A stretch of DNA of 64,000 nucleotides, taken from the NCBI GenBank assembly GCA_030390025.1, contig CM059431.1, positions 156,800,001 to 156,864,000 of the forward strand, read 5' to 3'. Numbering within the stretch: position 1 is the first letter of the stretch; each line of letters opens with the position of its first letter. Below the pieces are notes generated by a model. It saw only the letters and a program-made list of their open reading frames with translations, was not told the origin of the DNA and made no database searches. Source of the DNA: Squalus acanthias (lineage: Eukaryota). A program made the translations under genes and the position numbers. Of the stretch, positions 9,435-64,000 are shown piece after piece.

Positions 9435-12400
9435 TTTGCGGCATGGATTTGTGAAAGGTATATCATGCCTGACAAATCCGATTTTTTTTTTGAGGAGGTG
9501 ACTAAATTAGTGGACAGGGGTACGTGAATGGATGTTATTCATATGGACAGAAGAACATAAGAACACAAGAAATAGGATCAAGAGTAGGCTATTCGGCCCT
9601 TCGAGCCTGCTCCGCTATTCAAAGACGTCATGGCTGATCTTCTGCCTTAACTCCATTACCCGGCACTATCGCCATATCCCTTGATGCCCTTACTAGTCAG
9701 AATCTATCGACTTCTGTATTGAATATACCCAATGACTGAGCCTCCACAACTCTCTGGGGTAGTCAATTCCAAGGATTCACCACCCTCTGTGTGAAGAAAT
9801 GCCTTCTCATCTCAGTCCTGAATGGACTAAGCTTTATCTTGAGGCTGTGGCCCCTGGTTCTAGGCACCCCAGCTGAAGGAAATATTCTCCCAACATTCAT
9901 CCTATCAAGCCCTGTAATAATTATGTATGCTTCAATGAGATCCCCTCTCATTCTTCTGAATTCAAGAGAATACAGGCCTAGTTTACTCAAACTCTTCTCA
10001 TACGACTGTCCCACCATCCCACGAATCAATCTCGTGAACCTTCGTTGCACTCCCTCTATGGCAAGTATATCCTTCCTTAGGTAAAGAGAACTAAAGTGTA
10101 CACAGAACTCCAGGTGTGGTCTCACAAAGGCCCTATATAATGGGAGTAAGACTTCTTTACTCCTGTACTCAAATCCTCTTTTAATGAAGGCCAGCATACA
10201 ATTTGGCTTCCTGATGGCTTGCTGCACATGCACATTCACTTTCAGTGGCTCATGCACAAGGACACCCAGGTTCCCTTTGAGCATCTGCATTCCGCAATCT
10301 TTCACCTTTTAGGAAATACGCTGCCTTTCTGTTTTTTCTACCAAAGTCGATAACTTCACATTTATCCACGTTATATTCCGTCTGCAATGTTCTCGCCCAC
10401 TCACTGAGCCTGTCGAAATCCCCTTGAAGCATCTTCACATCCTCTTCGCAACTGACACTGCCACCTAGTTTTGTATCGTCAGCAAATTTGGAAATATTAC
10501 ATTTATTCCCCTCATGCAAATCATTGATTTTGATTGTGAATAGCTGTGGCCCAAGCACCGATCCTTGCGGTACCCCAATAGTCACAGCCTGCCATTCTGA
10601 CAAAGACCCGTTTATCCCTACTTTTTGTTTTCTGTCTGTTAACGAATTCTCAATCCATGCTTGTGTATTACCCACAATTCCATGTGCCCTAATTTTGTTC
10701 ACCATCTCTTGTTTTGGACCTTATCGAAAATCTTCTGAAAATCCAGATACACCACATCTACTGTTTCCCCTAATCTACTCCAGTAATTACATCCTCAAAG
10801 AACTCCAATATGTATGTCAAACAGGATTTCCCTTACATAAATCCATGTTGACTCTGCCCAATCTTACTATTAGTTTCTAAGTGCCCAGTTATTGCATCCT
10901 TTATAATTGATTCCAGCATTTTACCATGGCCAACATTTCCCTTATACCCTTGAGTTTCCTCTGTTTAGATAGAAGACTCTAGTTTCAGATTGGACTGCAT
11001 CATTCTCAAGTTTAAAGTAAAATTCAATCATATTATGTTGACTTGTACCTTAAGGCCCCTTTACCACAAGATTATTGATTAGCCCTTTCTCACGACACAG
11101 TACCAGATGCAGAATAGCCTGTTCCCTGGTTGGTTCCTCCACATACAGATCGAGGAAAACATTTTGCATGCATTCCAAGAATTCGTCCTCCACATCATTA
11201 GTGGTAATTTGATTTGCCCACTCAATATGTAGATTAAAGTCCCCCATGATTAGCGTATTGTCCATGTCACATGCACTTCTAATATCTTGATTGATACTGT
11301 GCCATACATTACCATTACTGTTTGGTGGCCTATACACAAATCCCACCAATTTTTTCCGCCCTTTGCTGTTTCTTAGCTCCACCCAAAGTGATTTCAGTTC
11401 GACATCACGATCTGCCAAGCCAAGATCTTTTATCTCTACCGTACCAATCTCGTCCCTTAATCACAGCGCAACGCCACTTCCTTTTCCTTTTTGTCTGTCC
11501 TTCCTAAATGTTGAGTACCCTGCAACATTCAGTTCCCAGCTTTGGTTACCCTGCAAGCATGTCTCTGTAATGGCAATTACATCATACCCATTTACTTCTA
11601 TTAGTGCCATTAATTCATCCACATTTTTGTGAATGCTACGAACATTTAGATACAGTACCTTCAACTTTGCCTGTTTAATATTTCTCTGCACTTTGAACCT
11701 CTTTACTGTTGGCCTTTGTTTCTGCTTCCTATTGTTTTGCTGACTACTTTTCTAACTTGCACTTCCAGCTTTGTTTCTTTCCGTTCTGGGCCCACACTTA
11801 GGTTCCCAGCCCCCTGAAAAATTAGGTTAAATCCTTCCCAACAGTACTAGCAAACCCCCCTGAGAGGATGTTGGTCCCGCTTCTGCCGAGGTTTAACCCG
11901 TCCAGCTATTACACGCCCCACCTTCCCCAGAATCAGTCCCAAAGCCTCAGGAATTTAAATCCCTCCCTCCTACACCATCTCTCCAGCCACGCATTCATCT
12001 GGTCTATTCTCCTATTTATGCTCCCGCAAGCACGTGTCACTGGGAGTAATCCTGTGATTGCTACCTTTGAGGTACTGCTTTTTAATTTATTTTCTAACTC
12101 CCTCTAATTTGCTTGCAGGATCTCGTCCCTCTTTCTACCTATGTCGTTGTGACCGATATGGACCACGACCTCTGGCTGTTCATACTCCCCCTTCAGAATG
12201 TCCGGCATTGACATCCTTGACCTGTCACCGGGGAGGCAACACACCATCCTGGAGTCACGTCTGCGGCCACAGAAATGTCTATCTGTTCCCCTTACGAGAG
12301 TATCCCCTATCACTATTGCTCTCCCACTCTTTTTCCTCCCCTCCTGTGCAGCTGAGCCACTCGTTGTGCATGGACTTGGCTCTTGCTGCATTCCCCTGAG

Positions 12401-13655
12401 AAATCACCTCCCCCAGCAAATCCAAAAAGGAAAATCTGTTGGAGAGCGAGATGGACCCAGGTGACTCCTGCACTACCTTCCTCGTTCTTGTACTCTTTCT
12501 GGCGGTCACCCATTCTCTGTCTCCCTATGCCCTCTGTAACTGCGATGTGACCACCTCGTTATACTTCCAGATGGCATTTGATAAATTCCCACATAAGAGG
12601 CTGTTAGCTAAAGTAGATGCCCACGGAATTGAGGACAAATTATCGACCTGGTCAGGAAATTAGCTGACCGGCAGGAGACACGCAGTAGGATTAATAGCTA
12701 GGAAACACATTGGCAGGAGGTGACTAGTAGTACCGGGCAGCCTCAACTATTCACAGTATTTATTAACACTTAGATGATTGCATAGAATTATCCAAATTTG
12801 CCGATGACAGTGCAGATGAAAGCATAACATTACAAAGGAATATCGACAGATTAAATGTCTGGGTAAAGCTGTGGCAAATCGATTTCAATGCTGGCAAATA
12901 TGAGTTCATCCACTTTGGACCTAAACAGGACAGAACAGGGCACTTTCTAAATGGTGAAAATCTAAAAACAGTGGATGTCCACAGAGAATTAGGGGTCCAG
13001 GTACATAGATTATTAAAATGTCATGAACAGGTAAAGACAATAATCAAAAAGACGAATGGAATGCTGACCTTTACATGTAGAGGACTATAATACAAGGGGT
13101 TTAGAAGTTATGCTGCAGCTGTACAAAACGCTGGTTAGACCACACCTGGAGTGCTGTGAGAAGTTCTAGGCACCACAATTCAGGAAGGATATATTGGCCT
13201 TGGAGGGAGTGCAGCGTAGGTTTACCAGAATGATACCTGGTCTACAAGGGATAAGTTACGCGGAGAGAATACACAAATTAAGGTGGTATTCCCTAGAATT
13301 TATAAGGTTAAGGGGTGATCTGATCGAAGTTTTCAAGTTATTAAGGGGAGCAAACATGGTAGATAGAGAGAAACTATTTCCGCTGGTAGGGGATTCTTGG
13401 ACGAGGGGGGCATAGTGTAAAAATAGAGCCAGATGTTTCTGGAGTGAATTTAGGAAACACTTCTACACACAAAGGCTGGTAGAAGTTTGGAACTCTCTTC
13501 TGCAAACGTCAAGTGATGCTACATCAATTGTTAATTTAAAGTTTGAGATTGACAGCGTTTATTTAAGCAAAAAATATTAAGTGATATGTGCAGAAGGCGA
13601 GCCATGATCTCATTGAATTTCGGAACAGGCCCGAGGTGTTCAATGGCCTAGTCCT
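9435..13655 (+). mobile_element. CR1 LINE RT/3' fragment split by a nested CR1 (pieces 9435-9548 and ~12565-13655)
   Basis: HMD|FQMAFDK motif is interrupted at 9548 and resumes at ~12565; downstream EGVQRRFTRMIPG. Confidence 0.85.
9549..12562 (-). mobile_element. CR1 LINE (ORF1 esterase part, EN, internally deleted, RT, tail) nested in another CR1
   Basis: VIGDTLVRG/CCLPG (ORF1), YDVIAITET, GDFN (EN), [14 protein letters not shown] (RT); tail reads (AAGAACAT)n on plus at 9551. Confidence 0.92.
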
Positions 13656-17649: not shown

Positions 17650-18345
17650 GTAGATGTGTTATGCATAGCGTCATAGTAATCTGGGCTATTGAGCCCGCAG
17701 CAGGACAGAATACCCTGAGGAAATTGGGTCTGTAGAAGCTGAGTATACCTTGGGCTATGCAGAGGTTGAGAGTACCTGGACTATTGCATCTGTAGTTGGT
17801 TTGAATGCCGTGGGTTATGTAGAGGACCAGATTAGCTTGCTATATTGTTCCTGCAGAGGTTCAGAGTAGCCAACAATTACGAACCTGCAGAGCCACAGAC
17901 TCCCGTCATCTACAGAGAATCAGTGTGGCCTAGGCTACGGAAATGAGGAGGGACAGAATACCCTGGACTATTGAAGCTGTAGAGGGTCAGAATACCTGCG
18001 GCTATTGGGACTGCAGAAGCTCAGAGTAGCTTGGGCCATAGGGCTGCTAGGGTATAAGAGTAACCTGGGCAATCGAGCCTGCAGGGGCGCTAAGTACCAT
18101 GTGTATGGAGTTTGTGAGGACCCTGGTCTATGCAAAGGGACAGAGTGCCCTGGGCTATGCAGATGATCAGAGTTTCCTCGGCTATTGCTTTGTAGAGGGC
18201 CAGAGTACCATGGGCAATATACAGGTTCAGATGTCATGGAATCATGGGTATGTAGAGGTTTAGAGTACCCTGTGATATAGGGCCACATAATAGCAGAGCA
18301 CCCTGGGCTATGGAGCCTACAGAGGAGACGGGTATCCTGGACCAG
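17650..18345. repeat. Degenerate satellite, ~35-bp unit (CTGGGCTATTGGGCCTGYAGAGGGTCAGAGTACC) with ~26-27-bp variants
   Basis: Recurring GGGCTA / CAGAGTACC motifs; same family as 39900-45410 and 48655-49470. Confidence 0.85.
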
Positions 18346-22495: not shown

Positions 22496-25400
22496 CAGAG
22501 CGTTTTACATTTGTGTAGCACGAGAACTTTGTGGATTACTCATTTAGTGAGTTAAACACACCGCGGGTAAAGGCTAGGTCAGACAGTAAATGGGTGACCA
22601 AGAGGCAGGGCAATATCAGGAAGGTAGTGCAGGAGTCCCCTGCGGTCGTCTCCCTCCAAAACAGATATACCGTTTTGGATACTGTTGGGGGAAATGACCT
22701 ACCAGGGGAAGGCACCAGCAGCCAGCTTAATGGCACCATGGCTGGCTCTGCTGCACAGCAGGGCGGGAAAAAGAGTGGTAGTGCTATAATGATAGGGGAC
22801 TCAATTATAAGGGGAATAGACAGGAGTTTCTGTGGCCGCAACCGAGATTCCAGGATGGTATTTTGCCTCCCTGGTGCAAGGGTCAAGGATGTCTTGGAGC
22901 GGCTGCAGAACATTCTGGAAAGGGAGGGTGAAGAGCCAGTTGTCGTGGTGCATGTAGGTACCAACGATATAGGTAAAAAGCGGGAAGATGTCCTACAAGC
23001 AGAATATAGGGAGCTGGGAGCTAAATTGAAAAGTAGGACCTGAAAGGTAGTAATCTCTGGGTTGCTACCAGTGCCACGTGCTAATCAGAGTAGCATGAAC
23101 AGGATAGCGAGATTAAATACGTGGCTTGAGCAGTGGTGCAGGAGGGAGGGATTCAAATACCTGAGGCATTGGAACCAGATCTGGGGGAAGAGGGACCTGT
23201 ACAAAAGGCACGGTCTGCACTTGGGCAGGACTGGAACCGATGTCCTCGGGGTAATATTTGCTAAGGCAGTTCGGGAGGATTTAAACTAATATGGCAGGGG
23301 AATGGGAACCTATGTAGCGAAACAGGGGGAAGTAATATGCAGTCAGAAACAAATGTTAGAAGGGTGAGAAACAATAAAGGAAATCCGAGTAAACAAAGGC
23401 AAGAAACACAAAGGGCCATACTAAATCATAAGTCTAAAAGGACAAAGGGTGTTAATAAAACATGCCTAAAGGCTCTGTGTCTTAATGCAAGGAGTATCCG
23501 TAATAAGGTGGATGAATTGACTGTGCAAATTGATGTTAACGGATATGATGTGATTGGGATTACAGAGACGTGGCTCCAGAACAATCAAGGCTGGGAACTG
23601 AATATCGAGGGGTATTCAACATTCAGGAAGGATAGAATAAAAGGAAAAGGGGGTGGGGTAGCATTGCTGGTTAAAAAGGAGATTAATGCAATAGCTAGGA
23701 AGGACATTAGCTTGGAGGATGTGGAATCAATATGCGTTGAGCTGCAGAACACCAAAGGGCAGAAAACGTTAGTGGGGGTTGTATACAGATCTCCAAACAG
23801 TAGTAGTGAGTTGGGGGAGGGTATGAAACAGGAAATCAGAGGTGCATGCAAAAAAGGCGCAGCAGTTATCATGGGTGACTTTAATATGCATATAGATTGG
23901 GCTACTCAAACTGGAAGCAATACGGTGGAGGAGGATTTCCTAGATTGTTTATGGGATGGTTTCCTAAACCAATATGTTGAGGAACCAACTAGAGGGGAGG
24001 CCATCCTGGACTGGGTGTTGTGTAATGAGGAAGGACTAATCAGCAATCTTGGGGAAGAGTGACCATAGTATGGTGGAGTTCTACATTAGGATGGAGAAGG
24101 AAACAGTTAATTCAGAGACCATGGTCCAGAACTTAAATAAGGGCAACTTTGAGGGTATGAGGCGTGAATTGGCGAGGTTAGATTGGCAAGCGATATTTAA
24201 GGGGTTATCAGTGGAAGGGCAATGGCAGACATTTAGAGATCGCATGGATGAACTACAGCAATTGTACATCCCTGTCTGGCGTAAAAATAAAAAAGGGAAG
24301 GTGGCTCAAACATGGCTAACAAGGGAAATCAGGGATAGTATTAAAATCAAGGGAGTGGCATACAAATTGGCCAGAAGCAGCAGCAAACCCGGGGACTGGG
24401 AGATCTTTCAAACTCAGCAGAGGAGGACGAAGGGTTTGATTAGGGCAGGGAAAATAAAATATGAAAGGAAGCTTGCGGAGAACATTAAAACGGACTGCAA
24501 AAGCTTCTATAAATATGTAAAAAGAAAGAGGTTAGTAAAAACAAACGTAGGTCCCCTGCAGTCAGAAACAGGGGAAGTCATAATGGGCAACGGGAAATGG
24601 CAGATCAATTGAACAAGTACTTTGGTTCGGTGTTTACTGTGTAGGACACAAACAACCTTCCAAAAATAAAAGAGATCAAAGGATCTGGTAAGAGGGAGGA
24701 GCTGAGGGAAATCCTTATCAGTCGGGAAAAGGTGTTGGGGTAATTGATGGGACTGAAGGCTGATAAATCCCCAGGGCCTGATGGTCTGCATCCCAGAGTA
24801 CTTAAAGAGGTGGCCTTGGAAATAGTGGATGCATTGACGATCATTTTCCAACATTCCTTAGACTCTGGATCAGTTCCCAAGGAGTGGAGGGTGGCTAATG
24901 TAACCCCTCTTTTTAAAAAAGGAGGGAGGGAGAAAGCAGGGAATTATAGACTGGTCAGCCTGACATCGGTGGTGGGTAAAATGATGGAATCAATTATTAA
25001 AGATGTCATAACAGACCATTTGGAAAGTGGCGACTTGATAGGTCCAAGTCAGCATGGATTTGTGAAAGGGAAATCATGCTTGACAAATCTTCTGGAATTT
25101 TTTGAGGATGTTTCCAATAGGGTGGACGGGGGGGAACCAGTAGATGTCGTGTATTTGGACTTTCAGAAGGCCTTCGACAAGGTCTCACACAAGAGATTGG
25201 TGTGCAAAGTTAAAGCATATGGGATTGGGGGTAATGTGTTGACGTGGATTGAGAACTGTTTGGCACACAGGAAACAAAGCGTAGGAGTAAATGGGTACTT
25301 TTCAGAATGGCAGGCAGTGACCAGCGGGGTACCGCAGGGTTCGGTGCTGGGGCCCCAGCTGTTTACATTATATATTAATGATTTGGACGAAGGGATTAAT

Positions 25401-27383
25401 TGTAATATCTCCAAATTTGCGGATGACACTAAATTGGGAGGCAGTGTGAACAATGAGGAGGATGCTAGGAGGCTACAGAGTGACTTGGACAGGTTGGGTG
25501 AATGGGCAAATGTATGGCAGATGAAATACAATGTGGATAAATGTGAGGTTATCCACTTTGGTGGTAAAAATAGGGAGGCAGACTATTACCTGAATGGTGG
25601 CAGAATAGGGAAAGGGGAGGTGCAACGAGACCTGGGCGTCATGGTACATCAGTCACTGAAGGTGGGAAGGCAAGTGCAGCAGGCAGTCAAGAAAGCAAAT
25701 GGCATGATGGCCTTCATAGCAAGGGGATTTGAGTACAGGAGTAGGGAGGTGATGCTACAGTTGTACAGGGCCTTGGTGAGGCCACACCTGGAATATTGTG
25801 TGCAGTTTTGGTCTCCTAACTTGAGGAAGGACATTCTTGCTATTGAGGGAGTGCAATGAAGGTTCACTAGATTGATTCCTGGGATGGCCAGACTGACATA
25901 TCAAGAAAGAGTGGATCAACTGAACTTGTATCCTCTGGAGTTCAGAAGAATGAAGGGGGATCTTATAGAGACGTTTAAAATCCTGGCTGGTTTCGACAAA
26001 TTAGATGCGGGCAGAATGTTTCCAATGTTAGGGAAAACTAAAACCAGGGGACACAGTCTAAGGATAAAGGGGAAGCCATTTAAGACTGAGAAGAGGAGGA
26101 ACTTGTTCACCCAGAGAGTGGTGAATCTGTGGAATTCTCTACCACAGAAGGTTGTTGAGGCCAGTTCGCTAAATAAATTCAAAAGTGAGTTATATAAAAT
26201 ACTCACAACTAGGGGGATCAAGGGGTATGGCGAGAAAGCAGAGATGGGGTACTGAGGTAGCATGTTCAGCCATGATCGCATTGAATGGCGGTGCAGGCTC
26301 GAAGGACCGAATGGTCCATTCCTGCACCTATTTTCTATGTTTCTATGTTTCTATGTTTCAGCTGATGGATGCATTCATCTTGTATCCCACAGGTACTGAG
26401 ATTCAACTCTTCTATCATTTCAACGGCCATTAGTGCGTTTGACAGATCCGCACAGTCAGAAGGTTTAAGTGGACACTGTTTAAATTTCATTGTCTTTATC
26501 GGTATTATTGCGGCCTTCATCAGTTCTATGTCTCCAAATTCAAGAAAATAATGCTATATCTTTAAGAATGTCCTTTGGCTTTGCCCATCTTCCAAGTTCG
26601 GAACACGTCTTTTGTCATGTTCTGTGAGCCAATCCGGCACACACGCGGTTGCTTCAGAAGGAAATTCCCCCAATTTTCTTTAAAGCTGATCAGTTGAATT
26701 CCGTGAGGAGTGACCGACAAGAAAACGTGAAAATATATTGAACCTCTCGTCAGAGCACGTGCACAATTCATTGAGCAATCGTGTCAGCCCATTTCCTGGT
26801 GTGCTGAGTCTTTTCATCAGTGCAGCGACAAAGTCCTGCACGACGGAGTGAGTGAATGTGTAGACAACACTGCACAGACCTTCGTCTCGAATCTCCATCA
26901 TAAACGCAGAGATAAGATTGGAAAGTTCGAGTTGATTTAATTTTTCGGTTTTTAAGACAACGGTTTTCTTACAAATACCCTCGTAGGCCAAAATGTCCAG
27001 TTTCAGCAACATTTCGCGAGAGGTTTCCACGTCACAGCCGCATCTCTCTAAAAGGCTTGTGATGTACGCACAGAACACCTGTCTGCTGGTTGGGACGGAT
27101 AATGGTCTCTCCCGCGATCATTGTGCTCGGTGTGACTCTAATAATGAAGCGAGAACCGAGCAGTACAGAGGATTATAGCACATGGTGCAGAGTGTGTCAT
27201 TCTGCTGAATGCACTCGATTACATCTGTCGCAAATTGTTCAGCTCCAAAATAAAGGCGACAATATTGTTTTATGTTCTCAGAGGTGAAACCCAGGATTTC
27301 GAACCTTTGAATGATGTTTTGCTTTACCAGAGACTCCAGTTTCCACGGACGGCTTGTGATCAGTACTGAGCAGCCTTGGAGCA
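22496..27383 (-). pseudogene. NLR copy 1 NACHT exon remnant (22496-22522 and ~26355-27383), split by a CR1, with its 5' half missing
   Basis: GCSVLITSRP, EILGF, YTFTHSVVQDFVAA align with the copy 2 exon; in-frame stops at ~27118, ~26680 and ~26553; no Walker A/B found in the window for this copy. Confidence 0.9.
22523..26359 (+). mobile_element. Comparatively young CR1 LINE (partial ORF1 esterase, near-complete ORF2 EN-RT with a few stops and frameshifts)
   Basis: [55 protein letters not shown]; tail (TTTCTATG)n. Confidence 0.95.
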
Positions 27384-29224: not shown

Positions 29225-29530
29225 ACCGGCCTAGTCTTCTCAAGCGTTCCTAATTGGAGACTGCCCATCCCAGGAATCAGTCTAGTGAACGTTCTTTGCA
29301 CTCCCACTCAGGCAAGTATATCTTTGCTTAAGTAAAGAACCAGATACTGTACTCAGTACTCCAGGTGTGGTCTCACCAAGGCTCTATATATTTACAGTAA
29401 GACTCCTTTACTCATGTAGTCCAATCCTTTTGTAATCAAGGCTAACATATCAGTTGCTTTCCTGAATGCTTCCTGATCCTGCATGTTAAATTTCAATGAT
29501 TCGTAGTCAAGAACACCCTGATACCCTCTG
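29225..29530 (-). mobile_element. CR1 RT fragment
   Basis: Minus strand ALVRPHLEY motif. Confidence 0.75.
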
Positions 29531-33366: not shown

Positions 33367-34266
33367 TGTAGGAAAGGCTGATAGATAGAGATATTTACTA
33401 GACGAGAACAATATAAATATAAATTAAATTTAAGCCATTGACCAAATAATATTACCCATAATTACTGCTGGGTAAGTAACAAGCTAAGACTTGTTCAAAA
33501 TCCAGCTGCAAAGACAGTCAAAAGCAGTTTTGACTAATTTCTGATAACAAACAGCTACACGCTGCGAGTGATGGTTAAATTTCTAAATAACATATTATGA
33601 TGCTAAGTAGAAATTAGAATGTGCTTAACAAAATTAATTGCAAAGATATTTAAAAAATAATTAATATATGGACATAAAATGAGAGAGATTCTGGAGATAA
33701 GGTATTTATCTGGTAAATTAAAGTGAGATAGTCTGGATACCTCAAGACTAGTGAAACAGCGCTGATACGGGCCCTTGGTATAAAGGCCTTGCACCAGGGA
33801 GGCAGGAAATTAAAGAGAAATGGTAAATTCCAATGGGGTGAAAAACAATATAACAGGACAGCAGGATAGGGTTGCCGTAAAAATACTGGAAAGGCGGGAT
33901 GCTACCTTTGTCTGAGTGACAATGTTATTTTGACCATTATAACCAATTATAAAAGGTGATTTTGTTAAAGACCATATATGGACACTTGCCAAGCCAACTT
34001 TTGATAAGAAAAGTGTTAAAACCTCAATAGCCAAAGAACAACTTTACACAGACGTACTGCGAGAACAAAGGAACAGCATTAAGATGACATCATCTTTGTC
34101 AGAGAGTTTCCAGAGACCTAGGGCTGCGAGCTGCTCGTTAAAATTATCGCCTAATGTTAAGTATGTATACGCTGTAAGCTTAATAAATCTTGATCTATTG
34201 CTCAAACATACTGGCTGCTGCCTATTGGTGTCTTGTCCAATAACTCAGACATGATTAAATCTTATA
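33367..34266 (+). repeat. 5' LTR (~0.9 kb)
   Basis: Starts TGTAGGAAAGGCTGATAG; CCAAT/TATAAAA at 33943-33954; AATAAA at 34182-34187; colinear with 38080-39622. Confidence 0.88.
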
Positions 34267-34269
34267 AAT

Positions 34270-34287
34270 AGGCACCCCAGATGGGAC
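34270..34287 (+). promoter_or_regulatory. Primer-binding site complementary to the tRNA-Arg(CCT) 3' end
   Basis: AGGCACCCCAGATGGGAC versus expected TGGCACCCCAGATGGGAC (17/18), located directly after the LTR. Confidence 0.8.
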
Positions 34288-34449
34288 AAGATTAAACGGC
34301 TATTATTATGTAATAGATCGGACCTCGAAAGTAGCTTCCTGTTCAGCTGCTGCTCTTGAGGAGGGATAAACCCCGTGGGGAGTGGGGAGTGCCCGTGAAT
34401 TACGCGCCGATAGGTATTGATGTTAGTGGTCTGTTAGAAAAATCACCAA

Positions 34450-34944
34450 ATGGCTAGTAAATGTTTTGTTAATGCAAATAAGAGTAAGTTAGACTGAGGC
34501 GGCTGTGCAGAGGAAGTAAAGTTATTATTGATTGAACTTTTAACCAAAGGAGACCCATTCCCCTTTGAAGAAGTGTCAAACTTTATTCCGGAACGTGTGA
34601 ATCAGGTAAAACACAATGAGTTAAGAGAGAAACATAGCCAGGTGTTTTGGCATAAAGTGCAGGAGAGAGATAGAGAGATAAAGAACGAAAAATATATAAT
34701 TTGCAGGCTGACCAACCTGAAAACTCAGCAAAGGAAGGAAAAATACAAGGATTTGGAAAGCCAGGAAAAGCTGCTGAGATACCGATTTAAAAAGAGGGAA
34801 AAAAAAGAGAAATTTAAAATTTTACCGACATGGAAGATATTAACTTCTGAGCCGAGACAAATAAAACACAAGATTTGCTGTGTGAAAGGAACCTTAAAAA
34901 ATCCTGGAATTTCAGTTTGTGTTAAAGTGTGCGTTAAAGTGTAA
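34450..34944 (+). pseudogene. gag-like N-terminal remnant of the LTR element (charged, coiled-coil-like)
   Basis: First long frame after the PBS: MASKCFVNANKSKLD*GGCAEEVKLLLIELLTKGDPFPFEEV...; one internal TGA; identity inferred from position. Confidence 0.5.
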
Positions 34945-36397
34945 AAGTTCTCCTGACTATGAATGTTTAAGAATTTACAGTGTTTTGTTTGCATGAAAGT
35001 CTGTCTTTAAAATAAAGATTCTGCTATGTGTGTTTTAGCTCCACTCACATCTCCGTGTTAAAAGCGTTTAAAACTTGTGTCTTTTCATGGATTTTGGAAG
35101 TTTTAAAAATGTGCGAATAAGATTGTTCCTTCACAATTTAAAAAAAAACTTTGATCTACAAATTAAGTTAAGCTGGTGTGTAAAAACGTAGAAGAACAAC
35201 AAAAAGTTTATTTAACAAAAGATTAAGTTCCAGTCTAAGATTTAACGTTTGAATCGCGGTTGCTATGGTGATATTTTCCAAAGCAGTTTGATTTGATTTG
35301 TTTAAAAGTGGAAAACTATTTTTACTCCAGTTATATTCAATGTTTTTACAGTATTTTAGAAAGACATCTGAAGAAAGGACAATAAGAAATATGCAATAAT
35401 TAATTTTTTTCTGCAAGCATGTACTATTTTATTTTGTTTTATCTGTTCTGTTCGTGATTAGTTAATAAAATGTTGATCTGAATTAGATTGGAATTATTAA
35501 AGGTAATTAACCTGTTAAATTGTGAAAACACAACTGTCTTTTTCGAGCGGGAAAGTTTTTTAAAATTTACTTGAAGTGACGCAATTGCATGCGCCTGACA
35601 ATGTTTCGCTCCACCTTCTTAAAATGCTGCAAAGCAGTTAACCCTTAGCACTGACAACTTTTTAGCATCACCAAGCAACAACTTTAGTATGACATTTAAA
35701 TATATTGGACATTATTACATTTAAGTTTCTTAATTTTAAGTTATTAATTCCCCACAGTGACAGAAGGAAAATTATGATCTGATTAATGAACCCTTTGGAC
35801 GCTGGGTAATGTCACAATAGATTTTCTTCTTTCTTTTGTTATATGGAAGTTACCTTGTAAACTAATTGCAGCACTTCTGTATCTAATGTTAAAACACTGT
35901 GCAAGCCACCTAGCCTGGGAATCACTTGTTTCTGAAATTGGAAATGAAAGATAAATTGATAGAAATTAAATTGAACATTGAGAAAACCTGTCAGATCAAC
36001 AATATTGCTTTTGCATTTTGGGATAATTTTGTAATATCAAAATGGAATCAGGCACTATATATCGGGGTTACTTTGGGGAAAATAAAATATCCTCTAAAAT
36101 AATGATAAATAAAAAGTGTTAATAACTTGGTCCAAGTGAGAATGTTTGATCTATGCTTTCAATCTTAAATATTGTACTGGACAGTAGAGTTCCTCTAGGC
36201 ACATGTATGAGATATGAATGGTAATTAATGGGATGTGTAAAATTGAGAGAGGAAGTGATTGAGGGTGTGAGATAGAAACAGGAGTATTACACCACCAATT
36301 GGGAATTTTGCAAACTTTCCAGTAAGAGTCAGGAAAGTTTAGTTAAGAATAGTAAATTGATAGCTTTCTCTTGGAGACTTTTGTGTCCCTGCTTACA

Positions 36398-37570
36398 ATG
36401 GACATTTTAAGAACACTCAATTTAATAGTCTGGCTATTATCCAAGGCATCAGAACCATGCGGTGAAAGATGAACAAAGACCTCCAGACAAGCTTTTGATA
36501 AGATCACCTGAAAGCCCGAGAAAGGCTTGTATCGGATGGCACTTGTGGCACGATATTGAGATACCGATATGAGTGTGCAAATGTAATTTGTTACGTATGA
36601 AGCAATTACCATCCGCAAATGCGTGTTGAATCTGCACTGAACAACAAGTATCAGACATGCTCAGTTACTTTACAACAGCAAGACATGAAATGGCTAATGT
36701 GGCTCAGGAGAGCGAGACAACATTTAAAGCATTGAGACATAATCCATCGTGAAAATATCTAATTAATGAATCAATCAGAATAGAGTTAAACACACTGGCA
36801 CCTGTTAGAGGGAATGAAATTGAATTTGAAGTGGAGAGTTACATGAAATTTGGATTGGGACAATTAAGGGCTAAGGAGTAATCATGCTTACTAAGAATTG
36901 TCCACAAGATGGATACGAGTAAAATAGATATCTGGAGAAGCTTGTAAGTTCATGATTTCTTGATTAGATGTTAAACTGTAATGTTGCTTGAAATGATTCT
37001 AAAACTGAATTTAACTGTAACTGTTTAGTTATGTTTTGTAGATAACAGAGCATGGGAAAAACAGCACGAATCCAGTATGAGGTGGTTTTGGTGGTGCTAC
37101 CTGTGTCACTACTACCGCAACCACCATGCTTTACGGGTCTAACAGGAACTGTCCCATCAACCAACATATTTTACTCAATATCAAAACCTATGCTCAAGTG
37201 AAACTGACAGTAAATGAGTTACTTAAGTATGAGCTTCACAATTATGTCTCACAATTCGGATACGACATTCCCTTGTTGTCTAATGGTTTCAGTGAGCTCG
37301 TGATGCGACTGAATTCCTCCCTAAAGCATTTTTATGATTTGGAGCAATACAACTCGAGAATGGATATTGAAATTTACCGCATAAGGGACGACACACACTG
37401 GTGGGATATTGGGCTTGATATATCAGCTCACTCTTAGGTTTGGGTTATTTCACATGCTCTGATAGTTCTCCAATTTGTAATGATAGTTTATATGATATAT
37501 ATATATTTTTTTTATCTGTGTAGTAAGACTTTGATACATATGCCAATTGTATACTCATGCCTATGACTAA
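36398..37570 (+). pseudogene. env-like membrane glycoprotein remnant
   Basis: Possible signal peptide at 36398; C-terminal frame CVTTT..YG..CP.., heptad-like helix with an NSS sequon, HWWDIG, then hydrophobic VISHALIVLQFVMIVYMIYIYFFYLC. Confidence 0.55.
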
Positions 37571-38079
37571 CCAGCACCAACAAATTAATTGAGCACATCG
37601 AAAGAGAAGCTCCGAAGCAACGTAGAGGAGACCCCAGGCGGGGTAACATAAGGAAAGATAGATGAAACGGAGGAGATCCCAGCCGGGGCAGAACTGGAAC
37701 ATCATAACAGTGAATTGAAATTAAGTAAAGGGTCCGATCAGAGCCGTTACAGCCAGATCAAAGATGCAGCAATAATAGCAGCAGGCGGAGGAGAAATGCT
37801 AGACTGGGACGCACTAGAAGGGAAGGCATAGTAGCAGGGCCGACATGATGGTTGAGCAGACCCGGGACTGACCCTCACCAATGAGAATAGGCGGTCGGCC
37901 CCTGTGAGTATCATTGTTAGCACCCAGGCCTATAATGAAAAGGGGGATAAAACCACATTTGAGAAGCGCTCCGTTCCCCTCAATTAGAGGACTCCGATTT
38001 GCAGCAACGCTTGTCAGACAATATATTGAGGTAGTCGAAGAATCAATGTTTAAAGCATTTCATCCTCGAGGTTTGGACT

Positions 38080-39622
38080 TGTACGAAAGGCTGATAGTTA
38101 GAGATACTTAGTAGACGAGAATTATATATGTATAACTTCAAGTGTAGACATTGACCAAATAATATTACCCATAATTACTCCTGGGTAAATACAAAGCTAA
38201 GACTTTGTCAAAATGCAGCTGCGCAGGACAGCCAAAAGCAGTTTTGACTAAGTTTTGATAACATACAGCCACAGACTGCAAGTGAAGGTTAAATTGCTAC
38301 AAAAAAAATTATAATGTTCAGTAGAAATTAGAATTCGCTTACCAACGTGAGGAACAGAGTGATCTGGGGGTTCATATTGACAGATCTCTGAAGGTTGCCA
38401 CTCAAGTGGATAGAGCAGTAAAGAAGGCCTATAGTGTGTTAGCGTTTATTAACAAGGGGTTTGAGTTTAAGAACCGTGAGGTTATGCTGCAACTGTACAG
38501 GACCTTGGTGAGACCTCATTTGGAATATTGTGTGCAGTTCTGGTCACCTCACTATAGGAAGGATGTGGAAGCATTGGAAAGAGTGCAAAGGAGATTTACC
38601 AGGATGCTGCCTGGGTTGGGGGGGAGGTCTTATGAGGAAAGATTGAGGGAGCTAGGTCTTTTCTCTTTAGAGCGGAGGAGGATGAGAGGCGACTTAATAG
38701 AGGTTTATAAGATGATGAGGGGGATAGATAGAGCGGATGTTCAGAGACTATTTCCTCGGGTGGATGTAGCTGTTACAAGGGGGCATAACTATAATGTGCA
38801 TGGGGGGAGATATAGAAGGGATGTCCGAGGTAGATTCTTTACTCAGAGAGTGATTGGGGTGTGGAATGGACTGCCTGCTGTGATAGTGGAGTCGGACACT
38901 TTAGGAACGTTCAAGCGGTTATTGGATAAGCACATGTAGCACCCCAGAATGATAGGGAGTGGGATAGCTTGATCTTGGTTTCGGACAATGCTCGGCACAA
39001 CATCGAGGGCCGAAGGGCCTGTACTGTGCTGTACTGTTCTATTTTCTATGTTCTATGTAAAACTAATTGCAACGAGATTCAAAAAATATTTAGTATAAGG
39101 ACATAAAATGAGAGAGATCGTGGAGATAAGGTATTTATTTGATAGATTAAAGTGAGATAGTTTGGATACCTCAAGACTAGTGAAACAGCGCTGATATGGG
39201 CCCTTGGTATAAAGGCCATGTACCAGGGAAGCTAGAAAAGAAAGAGATAAAGTAAATTCCAATGGGGTGGAAACTATGAACAGGATAATACTGAACATGG
39301 GATAGTTGGTGGAAAATTACTGGAAAGGTGGGATGCTAACTTAGTCTGAGTGACAATGGTATTTTGACCATTAGAACCAATTATAAAAGGTGATTTTGTT
39401 AAAGACCATACATGGACACTGAACAAACCAACTTTGGATAAGAAAAGGGTTAAAACCTCGACACTCAAAGAACAGCTTTACACAGACTCACTGGGAGAAC
39501 AAAGGAACAGACTTAAGACGACGTCATCTGTGTCCGAAAGGTTCCAGAGACCTAGGGCTGCGAGCTACACGTTAAAACTATCGCCTAATATTAAATATAT
39601 TAGGCTGTATGCTTAATAAATC
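38080..39622 (+). repeat. 3' LTR, interrupted by a CR1 and truncated just after its AATAAA
   Basis: Starts TGTACGAAAGGCTGATAG; matches the 5' LTR on both sides of the CR1 up to AATAAA at 39615-39620. Confidence 0.88.
38347..39057 (+). mobile_element. 5'-truncated CR1 inserted in the 3' LTR
   Basis: ORF 38406-38939 LVRPHLEYCVQFWSP; (TTCTATG)n tail; nearly identical to ~4638-5340. Confidence 0.93.
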
Positions 39623-39624
39623 AG

Positions 39625-39895
39625 AAATCATTAAAATCTTGCAACTCCATCTACCCGCCTTGGTTCTGTAACCGTTAATACCATTGCCTAGCTAAAATAT
39701 CACCAACTCAGTTTAGAAATGTCCAGTTGACTGAGCCTCAACACAATGGTTTCCGGAAAGAGTTTCATATTTCCATTGGCTTTTGTGTGAAGAAGTGCTT
39801 TCAGACATCACACCTGAACGGCGTAGCTGAAATGTTAAGTTTCTGCCCGTTTATTCAGGACTCTGCCACCAGCGGAAATAGATTTTTTCTATTAC
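39625..39895 (-). mobile_element. Old CR1 3' fragment
   Basis: Reverse complement resembles the CR1 C-terminus (RCDV*KHFFTQK...MEI). Confidence 0.6.
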
Positions 39896-47889: not shown

Positions 47890-48654
47890 AATATTTCCTT
47901 GTTTGCTGATGATGCAAAACTGGGTGGGAATGTAATTTGTGAACAGGATGCAATGAGGTTTCAAGGTAATATGCACAGGCTAAGTGAGTGGGCAAGAACA
48001 TGGCAAATGGAATAGAATGTGGTGAAATGTGAAGTTATCCACTTTGGTAGGAAAATACAAAAGCAGAGTATTTTTTTAATGGCGAGAGATTGGGAAATGT
48101 TGGTGTTCAGTGGAACCTGGGTCTCCTTGTACACGAATCACTCATTGTTAACATGCAGGTACAACAAGCAATTAGGAAAGCAAATGATATGTTGGCCGTT
48201 ATTAGAAGAATATTTTTAGAAGTGTAAAGACGTCTTACTGCTGTTAGATAGGGCCCTGGTGAGACCACACCTGTGTGTACAGTTTTGTTCTCCTTTCCTA
48301 AGGAAGGATATACTTGCATAGAGGGAGTGCAACGAAGGTTAACCAGGATGGTCCCTGGAATGGGGGGATTGTCCTAAACGGACAGATTGAGTAGACTAGG
48401 CCTATATTCTCTAGAATTTAGAAGAATGAGAGCTGATCTCATTGAAACATCCACAATTCTTACAGGGCTTTACCGGAAGATGCAAAGATGATATTTCCCC
48501 TGGCTGGGCATTCTAGAAGCAGTGGTCACAATCTCAGAATAAGGGGACGGCCATTTAAGTTTGAGATGAGGAGATATGTCTTCACTCTGAGGGTGGAGGA
48601 TCTTTGGAAGGGCCAAATGGCCTAATCCTGCTCATATTTTTTATGTTCTTATGA

Positions 48655-49470
48655 AGGGTCACTGTACACTGGTATACTTTGCCTGCAGATGGTCAGAGTC
48701 CAGTGGGCAATACAGAGTTCCAGATCAGACACTCCTATTTGGCCTGTAGAGGGTCAGATAAAATGGGCTATTGGGCATGCAGAGGGTCAGATTACCCTGG
48801 GTTTTGCAGAGGTTCAGAATAACCTGGGATATACAGCGGGTCAGAGTACATTGGTTTATTGGGCCTGTGGTGGACCAGATCACCCTGATCAATTAATTGT
48901 GTCAGGTAAACCTGGGCTATTGGGCCTTTAGATGGACTGCGGACGCTGGTCTTATGGCCTGCAAAGTGTAAATGTACCCTGGGCTATACAGAGGTTCAGA
49001 GTATCCTGGGCTATAGGGCCTTTAGAGGGTCAGCATACCCTCAGGTATTGAGCCTGCGAAGTATCCGAGTAACTGTGCTATTGTGGCGTGTAAATTTTCG
49101 GAGAACCCAGGTCTGAAAAGATAGTCAGAGTACCCTGGACTTTTGGGTATGCAGAATGTCAGAGTAACCAAGGCTATTGGACTCTGCAGAGGATCATATT
49201 ATCCTGGGCTATGGGGTAATGCAGTGTGTCATATTAACTTGGTCTATGGTGCACTAGAGGGTCAGAGTATCCTCGGCTATTGGGCCTATAGATCGTCGGT
49301 GTTACCTGGTCTTTTTGGATTTTCAGACAATCTATATAATCTGGAATAGTAAGCTGTCGAAGATCAGAGTACCCAGGTCTATTGGACATTGAGATGCTCA
49401 GAGCCCCCTTGGTTATGTAGCGTTAGCTGGGAGCCTGGTGATTGATGCGGCATAGTTTCTAAGAGCGTCC
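48655..49470. repeat. Continuation of the ~35-bp satellite
   Basis: Same unit as 39900-45410. Confidence 0.88.
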
Positions 49471-49490
49471 CTTGTGTACAGGGTTTATCA

Positions 49491-51059
49491 ATGGGCCAGG
49501 CCTCTCACTACCAATCACTATCTTTCACCAACGTTTCAGCCGGCTCTTGCCCCACGGAACTTATCTCTTCCTATCTCGACTCTATTTTTTCTCCCCTTAT
49601 CCAGTCTCTTCCCACCTACATCCGCGATTCCTCTGACGCCCTCCGCCACTTTAACAGTTTCCAGTTTCCTGGCCCCAACCGCCTTCTTTTCACCATGGAC
49701 ATACAATCCCTCTGCACCTCCATCCCCCGCCAGGATGGCCTGAGTGCGCTCCGCTTCTTCCTTGAAAAGAGGCCCAACCAGTCCCCATCCACCGCCACCC
49801 TCCTCCGCCTGGCTAAACTTGTTCTCACGTTGAACAACTTCTCCTTTGACTCCACTCATTTCCTCCAAATCAAAAGTGTTGCTATGGGTACCCGCATGGG
49901 TCCTAGCTATTCCTGCCTTTTCGTGGGTTATGTGGAACACTCTTTGTTACAGTCCTACTCGAGTCCCCTCCCTCATCTCTTTTTCCGGTACATTGACGAC
50001 TGTATCGGTGCCGTTTCCTGCTCTCGTCCTGAACTAGACAATTGTATTCACTTTGCCTCCAATTTCCACCCTTCCCTAACCTTCACATGGTCCATCTCCG
50101 ACTCTTCCCTTCCCTTCCTCGACTTCTCTATCTACATCTCTGGGGATAGGTTATTGACCAACATTCACTTCAAGCCCACTGACTCCCACAGCTACCTACA
50201 CTACACTTCCTCCCACCCCGCCTCCTGTAAGGACTCTATTCCCTTCTCCCAGTTTCTCCATCTCCGCCGCATCTGCTCCGACGATGCCACCTTCCATACC
50301 AGTGCTTCCAACATGTCTTCCTTTTTCCTCAAACGAGGATTCCCCTCTACCGTGGTCGACACGGCCCTCGACCGTGTCCGTTCTATCTCTCGCACTTCTG
50401 CCCTCACCCCAGACCCTCCCTGCCGGAACCACGATAGAGTTCACCTTGTCCTCACTTTTCACAACACCAGCCTCCACATTCAACGAATCATCGTCCGCCA
50501 TTTCTGCCACCTCCAACGTGATCCCACCACCAAACGTATCTTCCCATCACCTCCCCTTTCAGCATTCCATAGGGACCGCTCCCTCCGAGACACCCTAGTC
50601 CACTCCTCTATCACCCCGAGTACCCCTTCCCCTTCGCCCGGCACCTTCCCGTGCAAGCGCTGGAGATGCAACACCTGCCTTTATACATCCCCCATTTCCA
50701 CTCTCCAGGGCCCCAAACACCACTTCCAGGTGAAACAGCGATTTTCTTGTACTTCTTGCAATCTAGTATACTGTATTCGCTGCTCACGATGTGGTCTCCT
50801 CTACATTGGGGAGACCAAACGCAGATTGGGTGACCGCTTTGCAGAACACCTATATGCCGTCCATAAGGGTGATCCCGAGCCCCCGGTCGCTTGTCATTTT
50901 AACTCACCTCTCCACGCCCACTCAGACCTCACCGTCCTCGAACTCGTGCATTGTTTCCCGGAAGCTCAGCGTAAGCTCGAGGAACAGCACCTCATCTTCC
51001 GATTAGGCACTTTACAGCCTTCTGGACTCAATATCGAGTTCAACAATTTCAGATCATAA
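49491..51059 (+). mobile_element. Penelope-like element (Neptune-type) ORF: RT + Cys linker + GIY-YIG endonuclease; 5'-truncated but uninterrupted for 522 codons; 3' UTR to ~51490
   Basis: TMDIQSL, AMGTRMGPSY, RYIDD, KPTD, CKRWRCNTC, LVYCIRCSRCGLLYIGET..L.DRFAEH, PSGLN. Confidence 0.93.
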
Positions 51060-62356: not shown

Positions 62357-64000
62357 ATAAATAAGAACATAAGAACATAAGAAATAGGAGAAGGAGTAGG
62401 CCAATCGGCCTCTCGAGCCTGCTCCGACATTCAATAAGATCATGGGTGATCTGATCCTAAGCTCAAATCTAAAGAACACAAGAAGTAGGAGCAGGACCCG
62501 GCCACTCAGCCCCTGGGCCCGCTCCGTCACACACAGGGCCTTGACCGATCCGAACTCAGCCTCATGTCCAATTTCCTGCCCGCTCTCCGTAAACCCTAAT
62601 TCTCTTTACTTCTAGGAAACTGTCTATCTCTGTTTTAAATTTATTTAATGATGTAGCTTCCACAACATCCTGGGGCAGCAAATTCCACAGATCCACTACC
62701 CTCTGAGTGAAGAAGTTTCTCCTCATCTCAGTTTTGAAAGAGCAGCCCCTTATTCTAAGATTATGCCCCCTAGTTCTAGTTTCACCCATCCTTGGGAACA
62801 TCCTTACCGCATTCACCCGATCAAGCCCCTTCACAATCTTATATGTTTCAATAAGATCGGCTCTCATTCTTTTGAACTACAATGAGTGGAGTCCCAATCT
62901 ACTCAACCTCTCCTCATATGTCCAGCCCCTCATCCCCGGGATTAACCGAGTGAACCTTCTTTGTACTACTTCGAGAGCAAGTATGTATTTTCTTAAGTAT
63001 GGACACCAAAACTGTATGCAGTATTCCAGGTGCGGTCTCACCAATACCTTATATAACTGCAGCAACGCCTCCCTGTTTTTATAATCTATCACCCAAGCAA
63101 TAAAAGCCAACATTCCGTTGGCCTTCTTGATCACCTGCTGCACCTGCATACTAACTTTTTGATTTGCTTGCACTATGACACCCAGATCCCTTTGTACTGC
63201 AGTACTTTCCTGTTTCTCGCCATTAAGATAATAACTTGGTCTCTGATTTTTCCTGCCAAAGTGCATAACCTCACATTTTCCAATATTGTATTGCATCTGC
63301 CAAGTCTCCACACACTCACCCAGCCTGTCTATATCCCCTGGTAGTATTTTTATGTCCTCCTCACTTTCTACTTTCCCTCCCATCTTTGTATCATCTGCAA
63401 ACTTTGATATGTTACACTCGGTCCTCTCCTCCAAATCGTTAATATAGATTGTAAAGAGTTGGGGACCCAGCACCGACCCCTGCGGAACACCACTGTCTAC
63501 TGGTTCCCATTCCGAGAATGAACCATTTATCCCAACTCTCTGCTTCCTGTTAGATAACCAATCCTCCACCCATGCCAAAATATTACCCCCAATCCAGTGA
63601 TTTTTTATCTTGAGCAATAATCGTTGATGTGGCATCTTGTCGAATGCCTTCTGGAAGTCTAAATTCACTATGTCCACTGGTTCCCCTTTATCCACCCTGT
63701 ACGTTATGTCTTCAAAGAACTCAATCAAATTTGTCAGACATGACTTCCCCTTCATAAAGCCATGCTGACTTTGTCTATTAAATGTTCCGTTACTGTCTCC
63801 TTAATAATAGACTCCAAAATTTTACCCACCACAGATTTTAGGCTAACTGGTCTATAATTTTCAGCCTTCTGCCTGCTACCCTTTTTAAATAAGGGTGTTA
63901 CATTAGTTGTTTTCCAATCTGCCGGGACCTTTGCTGAGTCCAGGGAATTTTGGAAAATGATTACCAAAGCATCCACAATCCCTACTGCGACTTCCCTCAA
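62357..64000 (-). mobile_element. CR1 LINE RT and 3' UTR, running off the window
   Basis: [33 protein letters not shown]; (AAGAACAT)n tail on plus at ~62363. Confidence 0.93.

What the first reader, a model, noticed from the sequence alone, without database searches (positions are those of the whole stretch)
33367..39622. Long-LTR, tRNA-Arg-primed, pol-less retrovirus-like element, possibly a chondrichthyan lokiretrovirus relative
Seen: ~0.9-kb LTR pair with TATA and AATAAA, a 17/18 PBS match to tRNA-Arg(CCT), a charged helical gag-position frame at 34450, about 1.4 kb of AT-rich sequence with no RT/IN motifs I can find, and a membrane-protein remnant before the 3' LTR. The LTRs differ clearly (9 mismatches in the best ~130 bp, more elsewhere), so the insertion is old. 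Established: lokiretroviruses are a retrovirus sister lineage whose Env resembles paramyxo/pneumovirus F proteins. Inference: neither remnant shows motifs I associate with gamma/epsilon ERVs, so this could be a non-autonomous member of that lineage or of an undescribed one.
Basis: partly seen in the sequence, partly recalled or inferred. Interest (0 to 1): 0.75.

Follow-up and report, generated by a model that had tools for sequence, protein, structure and literature searches.

The report
Decayed pol-less shark endogenous retrovirus
This is an old, broken copy of a many-copy retrovirus-like family of sharks and rays that has lost its enzymes and kept only the tail of a paramyxovirus-F-type envelope gene, which does not by itself make it a lokiretrovirus.

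Summary
The element is real: 5' LTR 33367-34266, a 17/18 tRNA-Arg(CCT) primer site, a short gag-position frame, 2.1 kb with no pol trace, an env tail, and a 3' LTR 38080-39643. LTR divergence is 13.9%. The env tail matches 6 proteins of 1.84 billion; the 5 named ones are all from sharks or rays. Their fuller forms look like F-type fusogens (Atlas 0.93-0.94; weak Foldseek hits to pneumovirus F and foamy Env). Contigs of four other runs cover the whole interior, so this is a multi-copy non-autonomous family, most likely copied by a helper's Gag-Pol. Loki membership could not be tested because no RT was found. It is disfavoured: F-like Env also occurs in foamy viruses and errantiviruses, and Wang and Han found Loki in 0 of 6 chondrichthyan genomes. 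A snakehead-retrovirus-like origin fits best, partly by recall. The scan already noted young F-type-Env and pol-less families elsewhere in this genome.

The parts
33367..34266 (+). 5' LTR, 900 bp, TG..TA ends (inverted terminal 7-mers decayed); TATA box 33948, poly(A) signal 34182
34270..34287 (+). Primer-binding site, 17/18 to tRNA-Arg(CCT); contains an ATG at 34281 that is followed by a stop four codons later
34450..34944 (+). gag-position frame, 164 codons, one internal stop at codon 16, charged; no capsid part and no homolog found
34945..36203 (+). AT-rich spacer (30.7% GC), stop density as in shuffles, no pol trace; present in contigs of four other runs
36204..36947 (+). Stop-poor frame (9 stops in 247 codons, not significant); possible decayed accessory ORF or pol tail; no match to Pfam, PDB or the Env family
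37081..37578 (+). env remnant: last ~165 residues (membrane-proximal ectodomain, WW motif, transmembrane helix) of an F-type Env; aligns to residues 555-714 of the 739-aa relative P0009; stops at codons 119 and 162; the front ~550 residues are missing
37579..38066 (+). 0.5-kb stretch between env and the 3' LTR (48% GC), where SnRV and foamy-like viruses carry accessory ORFs; no significant frame here (P=0.70)
38067..38079 (+). Polypurine-tract position, ending GGTTTGGACT before the LTR
   Evidence: compared by eye
38080..39643 (+). 3' LTR, 851 bp without the insert, TG..CA ends, 57-bp deletion after the poly(A) signal
38346..39058 (+). Younger 5'-truncated LINE fragment inside the 3' LTR (CR1-type by recall of its motifs and tail; no Pfam hit), 95.5% identical to window 4637-5340

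Best explanation
A dead copy of a non-autonomous endogenous retrovirus family of elasmobranchs. Its ancestor was a complex retrovirus with a tRNA-Arg primer and an F-type Env. A deletion derivative lost protease, RT, integrase, most of gag and the front three quarters of env, but kept the signals needed in cis: LTR promoter and poly(A) site, PBS, PPT and presumably a packaging signal near the gag start. Its RNA was packaged, reverse-transcribed and integrated by Gag-Pol of an intact helper in the same germ line, so it spread as a retrotransposon, not by infection. This copy then decayed by about 7% per LTR, took a LINE in its 3' LTR, and had one end rearranged. Shown: anatomy, loss of pol, Env homology, many related copies in other samples. 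Inferred: helper-driven copying, packaging signal, order of events. Clade of the helper, not shown: SnRV-like/class III about 0.5, Loki about 0.15, foamy-like about 0.12, epsilon with F-type Env about 0.13, own lineage or gypsy-type about 0.1.
For: LTR, PBS and signals. No Pfam family in 6 of 6 frames. Env tail: 6 hits at E<=1e-3 among 1.84 billion proteins, best 3.9e-11; 5 of the 6 are named and all 5 are sharks or rays; a profile built without the window's sequence hits only 37090-37500 in the six frames of the window (i-E 3.9e-30) and scores 100 bits against at most 3.9 for 500 shuffles. F type of the relatives: Atlas Baculo_F 0.94 and Fusion_gly F0 0.93 for P0010; weak Baculo_F on P0008, E 0.0011; Foldseek with the P0009 model gives paramyxovirus F0 first, E 1.8e-6, and pneumovirus F and foamy Env in the top ten of PDB, E>=2.4e-3. 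Family: in 4 of 4 laid runs (4 organisms, 4 studies) all 30 bins are covered, up to 79 contigs show one place, and single contigs span the gag-frame/spacer border (34720-35048), the border before env (36867-37091) and the PPT/LTR border (38051-38268) at about 85-90% identity. SnRV-like lean: the PPT end resembles that of the SnRV-clade CmiERV lineage I and not Loki-Bsp or the foamy GGGTG (by eye); SnRV has an ORF between env and the 3' LTR; 2843 of 4861 chondrichthyan ERV RT loci are clade III (PMC11089739 Table 2); by recall only, SnRV uses a tRNA-Arg primer and its Env has an Ig-like head on an F-type body, like P0009.
Against: No helper or pol-bearing relative was obtained (no genome). No contig spans the whole element, so a uniform pol-less family structure is pieced together from short bridges; one contig leaves the window sequence after 36878, so some copies differ there. 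No target-site duplication. Both AlphaFold models are poor (pLDDT 37.5); the second gave no Foldseek hit under 0.001 and VIA returned only generic helical hairpins. Atlas recognition for P0010 was 1641, under the 2300 mark. The F-type call concerns relatives at 26-35% identity, not the remnant alone (Atlas blank). The SnRV link is mostly recall; the one published SnRV-clade shark ERV that I read has a different PBS and a gamma-type Env, which also shows that env does not fix the pol clade.
Confidence: 0.8

Rival explanations
1. Non-autonomous lokiretrovirus (lokiortervirus), the first from cartilaginous fishes, comparable to zebrafish Bhikhari.
For: F-type Env in the family; Loki Env is F-like (PMC7947760 sections read); pol-less Loki derivatives with coiled-coil Gag exist (PMC12067270 passages); earlier scan notes name Loki Env as closest known (unchecked).
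Against: 0 of 6 chondrichthyan genomes Loki-positive, among them Chiloscyllium punctatum, the species whose proteome holds the full-length relative P0009 (that it is the same assembly is my recall). No Arg(CCT) PBS string in the Loki dataset text (line breaks and a cut file could hide one). Loki-Bsp PPT is A5G6A and its Env has no long head before the F2 strand (by eye, 1 of 24 consensus sequences). F-like Env is not specific.
Confidence: 0.15
2. Derivative of a foamy-like ERV (shark FLERV or CFEFV type).
For: Foamy Env is F-like and appears among the Foldseek hits (8rm1, E 5.5e-3); fish foamy-like ERVs have ORFs between pol and env and after env; shark FLERVs are known, some from pol only.
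Against: No GGGTG at the PPT/LTR border, said to be shared by all fish foamy-like ERVs; their PBS types are Lys, Asn, Thr (window). The CFEFV paper could not be read.
Confidence: 0.12
3. Derivative of an epsilon-related ERV that carries a WDSV/WEHV-type, non-gamma Env.
For: WEHV1 Env ranks 7th in the viral Foldseek search, E 2.1e-3, probability 0.21; 2018 of 4861 chondrichthyan RT loci are clade I.
Against: The hit is weak on a poor model; the published epsilon-like CmiERV that I read has a gamma-type Env, a different PBS and a purine-rich PPT (by eye).
Confidence: 0.13
4. The two ends are not from one insertion: the locus is a recombinant of two copies of similar age, or lost one flank, so the LTR distance is not an insertion date.
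For: No 4-6-bp duplication. The 3' flank starts in the middle of a repeat: 79 and 164 contigs leave the window sequence at 39643 with a shared other upstream sequence, and a 16-mer of it has 6 matches in the window, none beside the 5' LTR.
Against: Stops in the two frames (1 in 164 and 2 in 165 codons) are about what 7% neutral decay would give (rough estimate, not computed in a call), so the age scale is right either way. This reading adds to the best explanation and does not replace it.
Confidence: 0.55

Closest known systems
Snakehead retrovirus and SnRV-clade ERVs (clade Huo; CmiERV lineage I). PMC12193657 introduction and passages, PMC4422223 part 1 and supplement parts 1-2, PMC6001957 passages read
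   Same: Stretch between env and 3' LTR where SnRV has its 3'ORF; about 0.8-0.9-kb LTR and similar PPT end in CmiERV lineage I; by recall only, tRNA-Arg primer and Ig-headed F-type Env in SnRV
   Different: No pol, truncated gag and env; CmiERV lineage I has another PBS and a gamma-type Env; no sequence comparison with SnRV could be run
Lokiretroviruses and Bhikhari. PMC7947760 parts 1-2 of 4 and supplement parts and searches, PMC9040795 and PMC12067270 passages read
   Same: F-type Env; long LTRs; pol-less derivatives exist
   Different: Not reported in 6 of 6 chondrichthyan genomes; other PPT; no Arg(CCT) PBS string found in the dataset; Bhikhari keeps a whole gag and no env, this element keeps neither whole
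Foamy viruses and fish foamy-like ERVs. PMC11468914 and PMC5512871 passages, PMC5210030 passages and section 3.4, PMC10699275 part 1 and passages read; PMC9972966 not held, title seen in a reference list only
   Same: F-like Env core; extra ORFs around env; long LTRs
   Different: GGGTG border absent; PBS is Arg, not Lys/Asn/Thr
Non-autonomous ERV partners in general (MaLR/ERV-L, ETn/MusD, VL30/MLV recalled; ENS-1/ENS-3 and Bik-2 in PMC12067270 passages)
   Same: Keeps LTRs, PBS and PPT, lacks enzymes, many copies
   Different: Keeps a fragment of an F-type env; helper not identified

Membership tests
Non-autonomous ERV / LTR element | Paired LTRs with TG..CA ends, promoter and poly(A) signal | tested here: met
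   the 5' LTR ends TA instead of CA
Non-autonomous ERV / LTR element | tRNA primer-binding site behind the 5' LTR | tested here: met
   17/18 to tRNA-Arg-CCT-4-1, 3 bases behind the LTR
Non-autonomous ERV / LTR element | No PR/RT/RH/IN | tested here: met
   0 Pfam families in 6 of 6 frames; no YXDD, D(T/S)GA or GPY/F motif in the 3 forward frames; interior only 3.8 kb
Non-autonomous ERV / LTR element | Deleted form is itself multi-copy | tested here: met
   30 of 30 bins covered in 4 of 4 runs, many distinct contigs per place, internal borders bridged; no contig spans the whole
Non-autonomous ERV / LTR element | Target-site duplication | tested here: not met
   flanks differ; 3' flank is a cut repeat
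Non-autonomous ERV / LTR element | Autonomous helper with the same LTR and PBS | not testable with these tools
   no genome; collection scans empty
Lokiretrovirus | RT in the Loki clade | not testable with these tools
   no RT here, no pol-linked relative
Lokiretrovirus | Env similar to Mononegavirales F | tested here: met
   on relatives P0009/P0010; low-confidence models; not specific to Loki
Lokiretrovirus | gag, pol with tether and second RNase H, env | tested here: not met
   pol and capsid absent; expected in any deletion derivative, so it does not exclude Loki ancestry
Lokiretrovirus | PBS and PPT like published Loki elements | tested here: inconclusive
   no Arg(CCT) PBS string in the dataset text; PPT differs from the 1 of 24 consensus sequences read
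SnRV-like ERV (clade Huo) | RT in the SnRV clade | not testable with these tools
   no RT obtained
SnRV-like ERV (clade Huo) | Env homologous in layout to SnRV Env; tRNA-Arg primer | not testable with these tools
   SnRV sequence not retrievable; resemblance is recalled
SnRV-like ERV (clade Huo) | ORF between env and 3' LTR | tested here: inconclusive
   0.5-kb stretch present, no significant frame, P=0.70
Foamy-like ERV | GGGTG at the PPT/LTR border | tested here: not met
   border reads GGACT|TG; one decayed copy only
Foamy-like ERV | tRNA-Lys (or Asn, Thr) primer | tested here: not met
   Arg(CCT)
Gamma-type Env ERVs (incl. the published CmiERVs read) | Immunosuppressive LQNR motif and CX6CC before the membrane anchor | tested here: not met
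   neither motif in the forward frames; PBS string absent from the CmiERV dataset
Described Repbase/Dfam family | Match to a library entry | not testable with these tools
   no such library is held

The most novel reading that the evidence does not exclude
The helper of this family, and the elasmobranch-wide Env lineage it belongs to (sharks, sawshark, skate; Ig-like head on an F-type body), has an RT that sits with lokiretroviruses or on a branch of its own. It would then be the first chondrichthyan member of the sister group of retroviruses, or a new deep lineage, and this pol-less family would be its retrotransposing satellite shared by several species.
Probability: 0.22. Interest if true: 0.62.

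Novelty: new member of a known kind. Interest (0 to 1): 0.3.

Why it matters
As a locus it is an ordinary fossil. What it adds: the F-type Env lineage is spread over at least five elasmobranch genera and produced an old, multi-copy, enzyme-less satellite. It also shows that an F-like Env cannot be used to call a shark element a lokiretrovirus. If the helper proves SnRV-like, F-type Env would be tied to a third retroviral clade beside foamy viruses and Loki, which favours an ancestral F-type envelope over independent captures. That question is better answered from the young intact copies that the scan has already noted than from this one.

Tried and rejected
No whole genome is held, so copy number and helper could not be counted in the host. 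Word-index protein searches: env tail against longer proteins, 0 of 257 candidates; gag frame, 0 of 463; Env alignment against 904-2580-aa proteins to find pol-env fusions, 1 of 6938, the known P0007. Env searches of viral and metagenome contigs: 0 confirmed of 10, 30 and 266 pattern matches. PBS pattern scans: 31 viral and 10 metagenome loci, none similar to the element beyond the pattern; those examined were phage tRNA ends or bacterial DNA. Atlas on the remnant: no usable hit. PDB sequence searches: gag frame and 36204 frame 0 hits; Env profile only E>=0.31, with antibody heavy chains on the front part. The 36204-36947 frame as part of Env: rejected; it was never searched against the large protein sets. 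A coding U3: stops are shared between both LTRs and the stop test gave P=0.07; rejected. A spliced env exon at 37043: not among the 2 strong acceptors found. Second model and VIA search uninformative. No RNA holder listed; run X16 is only guessed to be RNA, so nothing is said on expression. Depth figures were not used to rank parts. LTR dating in years rejected: no target duplication, and the rate assumed in PMC4422223 (2.2e-10) would give about 350 million years, which the nearly open frames contradict. Paper searches listed no description of this family; subscription papers, the CFEFV paper, Repbase and Dfam were not seen. Scan look-ups by place and sequence found no look-alike; 'snakehead' occurs in no earlier finding.
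Full report
Observation. The window holds an LTR element from 33367 to 39643. The 5' LTR is 900 bp; the 3' LTR is 851 bp once a 713-bp insert is set aside. Each LTR has TATAAAA and AATAAA in register. Three bases behind the 5' LTR lies an 18-mer that matches the 3' end of human tRNA-Arg-CCT-4-1, as printed in PMC11929888, at 17 of 18 places. The label CR1-type for the LINE is recalled; Pfam gave nothing.

Interior. Between the LTRs lie 3.8 kb, too little for gag-pol-env. Read with X at stops, none of the six frames matches a Pfam family, and the forward frames hold no YXDD, protease, GPY/F, zinc-knuckle, LQNR or CX6CC motif. Two frames are more open than dinucleotide shuffles: 34450-34944 (1 stop in 164 codons, P=0.032) and 37081-37578 (2 in 165, P=0.006). 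The spacer 34945-36203 (30.7% GC, P=0.38), the frame 36204-36947 (P=0.68) and the stretch after env (P=0.70) are not (seven regions tested, no correction). The first frame is charged (47% in residues 50-125) and sits where gag begins, but it has no homolog in Pfam, PDB or a word-index search, so 'gag' is a positional label.

The env remnant. A full phmmer scan of 1.84 billion representatives gave 6 hits at E<=0.001. Five have names: Heptranchias perlo, Rhinoraja longicauda, Pristiophorus japonicus, Heterodontus francisci and Chiloscyllium punctatum; the sixth is an unnamed Logan protein. Two are host gene models that have absorbed an env piece. P0009 is a 739-residue protein that UniRef calls Ig-like domain-containing, with a basic cleavage site, long helices and a membrane anchor. 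The remnant aligns to its residues 555-714 at 26% and to the others at 27-35%. A profile made without the window's sequence finds only 37090-37500 in the whole window and scores 100 bits against at most 3.9 for 500 shuffles. No other part of Env is found upstream. So the element keeps the last quarter of env and cannot make a fusion protein.

Type of Env. P0010, a 448-residue relative, is placed by the ESM Atlas with Baculo_F (0.94) and paramyxovirus F0 (0.93) clusters, though with low recognition. The AlphaFold model of P0009 is poor (pLDDT 37.5); Foldseek still ranks a paramyxovirus F0 first among viral models (E 1.8e-6, TM 0.14-0.18) with WEHV1 Env seventh, and pneumovirus F and foamy-virus Env fill the top ten in PDB (E 2.4e-3 or weaker). 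A second model and a VIA search added nothing. These weak lines agree on an F-type class I fusogen, as do earlier unchecked notes of this scan on young elements in the same genome.

A family, not a one-off. Seventeen runs share 5-14% of the sampled words. I laid 4 of the 17, from four organisms and four studies: all 30 bins are covered in all four, dozens of distinct contigs lie on single places (up to 79), and single contigs of 220-360 bases at about 85-90% identity cross the end of the gag frame, the spacer, the border before env and the PPT/LTR border. No contig spans the element, and at least one leaves it after 36878, so variants exist. The simplest reading is a deleted form that multiplied and is shared by several elasmobranchs.

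How it most likely worked. Shown: the cis signals are present and the enzymes are absent. Inferred from what is known of non-autonomous ERVs (Bik-2 and ENS-1 in PMC12067270; MaLR, ETn and VL30 by recall): the LTR drove a transcript that a helper's Gag packaged; the helper's RT primed on tRNA-Arg at the PBS, and its integrase inserted the copy. Without a working Env or capsid of its own it moved inside germ cells. The kept gag start may hold the packaging signal; the kept env tail may be a passenger next to the PPT. After insertion this copy decayed, gained the LINE, and probably exchanged or lost a flank: the 3' flank begins in the middle of a repeat whose other half is not at the 5' end. The LTR distance is therefore a family age scale and not a clean insertion date.

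Which clade. This needs an RT, and I obtained none: no genome is held, and protein, viral-contig and metagenome searches gave no pol-linked relative. Indirect evidence goes against Loki. An F-like Env is shared by foamy viruses (PMC11468914) and errantiviruses (PMC13524379). Wang and Han screened six chondrichthyan genomes and found Loki in none, C. punctatum included, although that species encodes P0009. Their dataset text holds no Arg(CCT) PBS string, and the one Loki consensus that I read has a different PPT. Foamy-like fish ERVs have a GGGTG border and Lys, Asn or Thr primers, which this copy lacks. The PPT end is closest to that of the SnRV-clade CmiERV lineage I, SnRV has an ORF between env and LTR, and most chondrichthyan ERV RTs are clade III. 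From memory only, SnRV uses a tRNA-Arg primer and its Env begins with an Ig-like domain on an F-type body; no call confirmed this. Against leaning on Env at all: CmiERV lineage I joins an SnRV-clade pol to a gamma-type Env. I put SnRV-like at about 0.5, Loki 0.15, epsilon 0.13, foamy-like 0.12, other 0.1.

Novelty and verdict. Ten paper searches listed no description of this family, and it is not one of the published CmiERVs by PBS or, for the two read, by Env; the CFEFV paper, Repbase and Dfam were not seen. The scan has already noted an Ig-headed F-type Env and a young pol-less family in this genome; no look-alike of this DNA was indexed. The locus is a new member of a known kind, a decayed non-autonomous ERV. 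The open question, the RT clade behind the elasmobranch F-type Env, is real but is better asked of intact copies. Interest 0.3.

Noticed in passing
window:34281-34295: The PBS contains an ATG that opens MGQD and then stops; an earlier scan note (e1-7806816) reports a PBS-overlapping gag start in another tRNA-Arg-primed family of this genome.
   Followed up: no
window:39950-44700, also 17954-18185 and 48777-49285: Long degenerate satellite with 27-, 33- and 34-bp units and 127-bp higher-order repeats.
   Followed up: no
window:4637-5340, 9877-10210, 13104-13240, 25653-25887, 29264-29397, 48250-48432, 62761-63128: Further LINE copies related to the insert in the 3' LTR, from 95% down to 64% identity; long open LINE-like frames at 24744-25856, 49446-51056, 59334-57532 and 63800-62880.
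   Followed up: partly
P0007 and P0008: Two shark gene models join a piece of this Env family to host genes (a cadherin-related protein in Pristiophorus, an fbxo15 isoform in Heterodontus); probably exonised or mis-annotated ERV pieces.
   Followed up: no
window:33367-34266 vs 38080-39643; 38349-39053 vs 4637-5340: Transversions outnumber transitions in both pairs (66:50 and 21:8), unusual for neutral decay in vertebrates; could be a local mutation pattern or assembly error.
   Followed up: no
window:36204-36947: Stop-poor frame with a cysteine cluster, covered by contigs in all four runs; not significant in the stop test and without match in Pfam, PDB or the Env family; not searched in the large protein sets.
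   Followed up: partly
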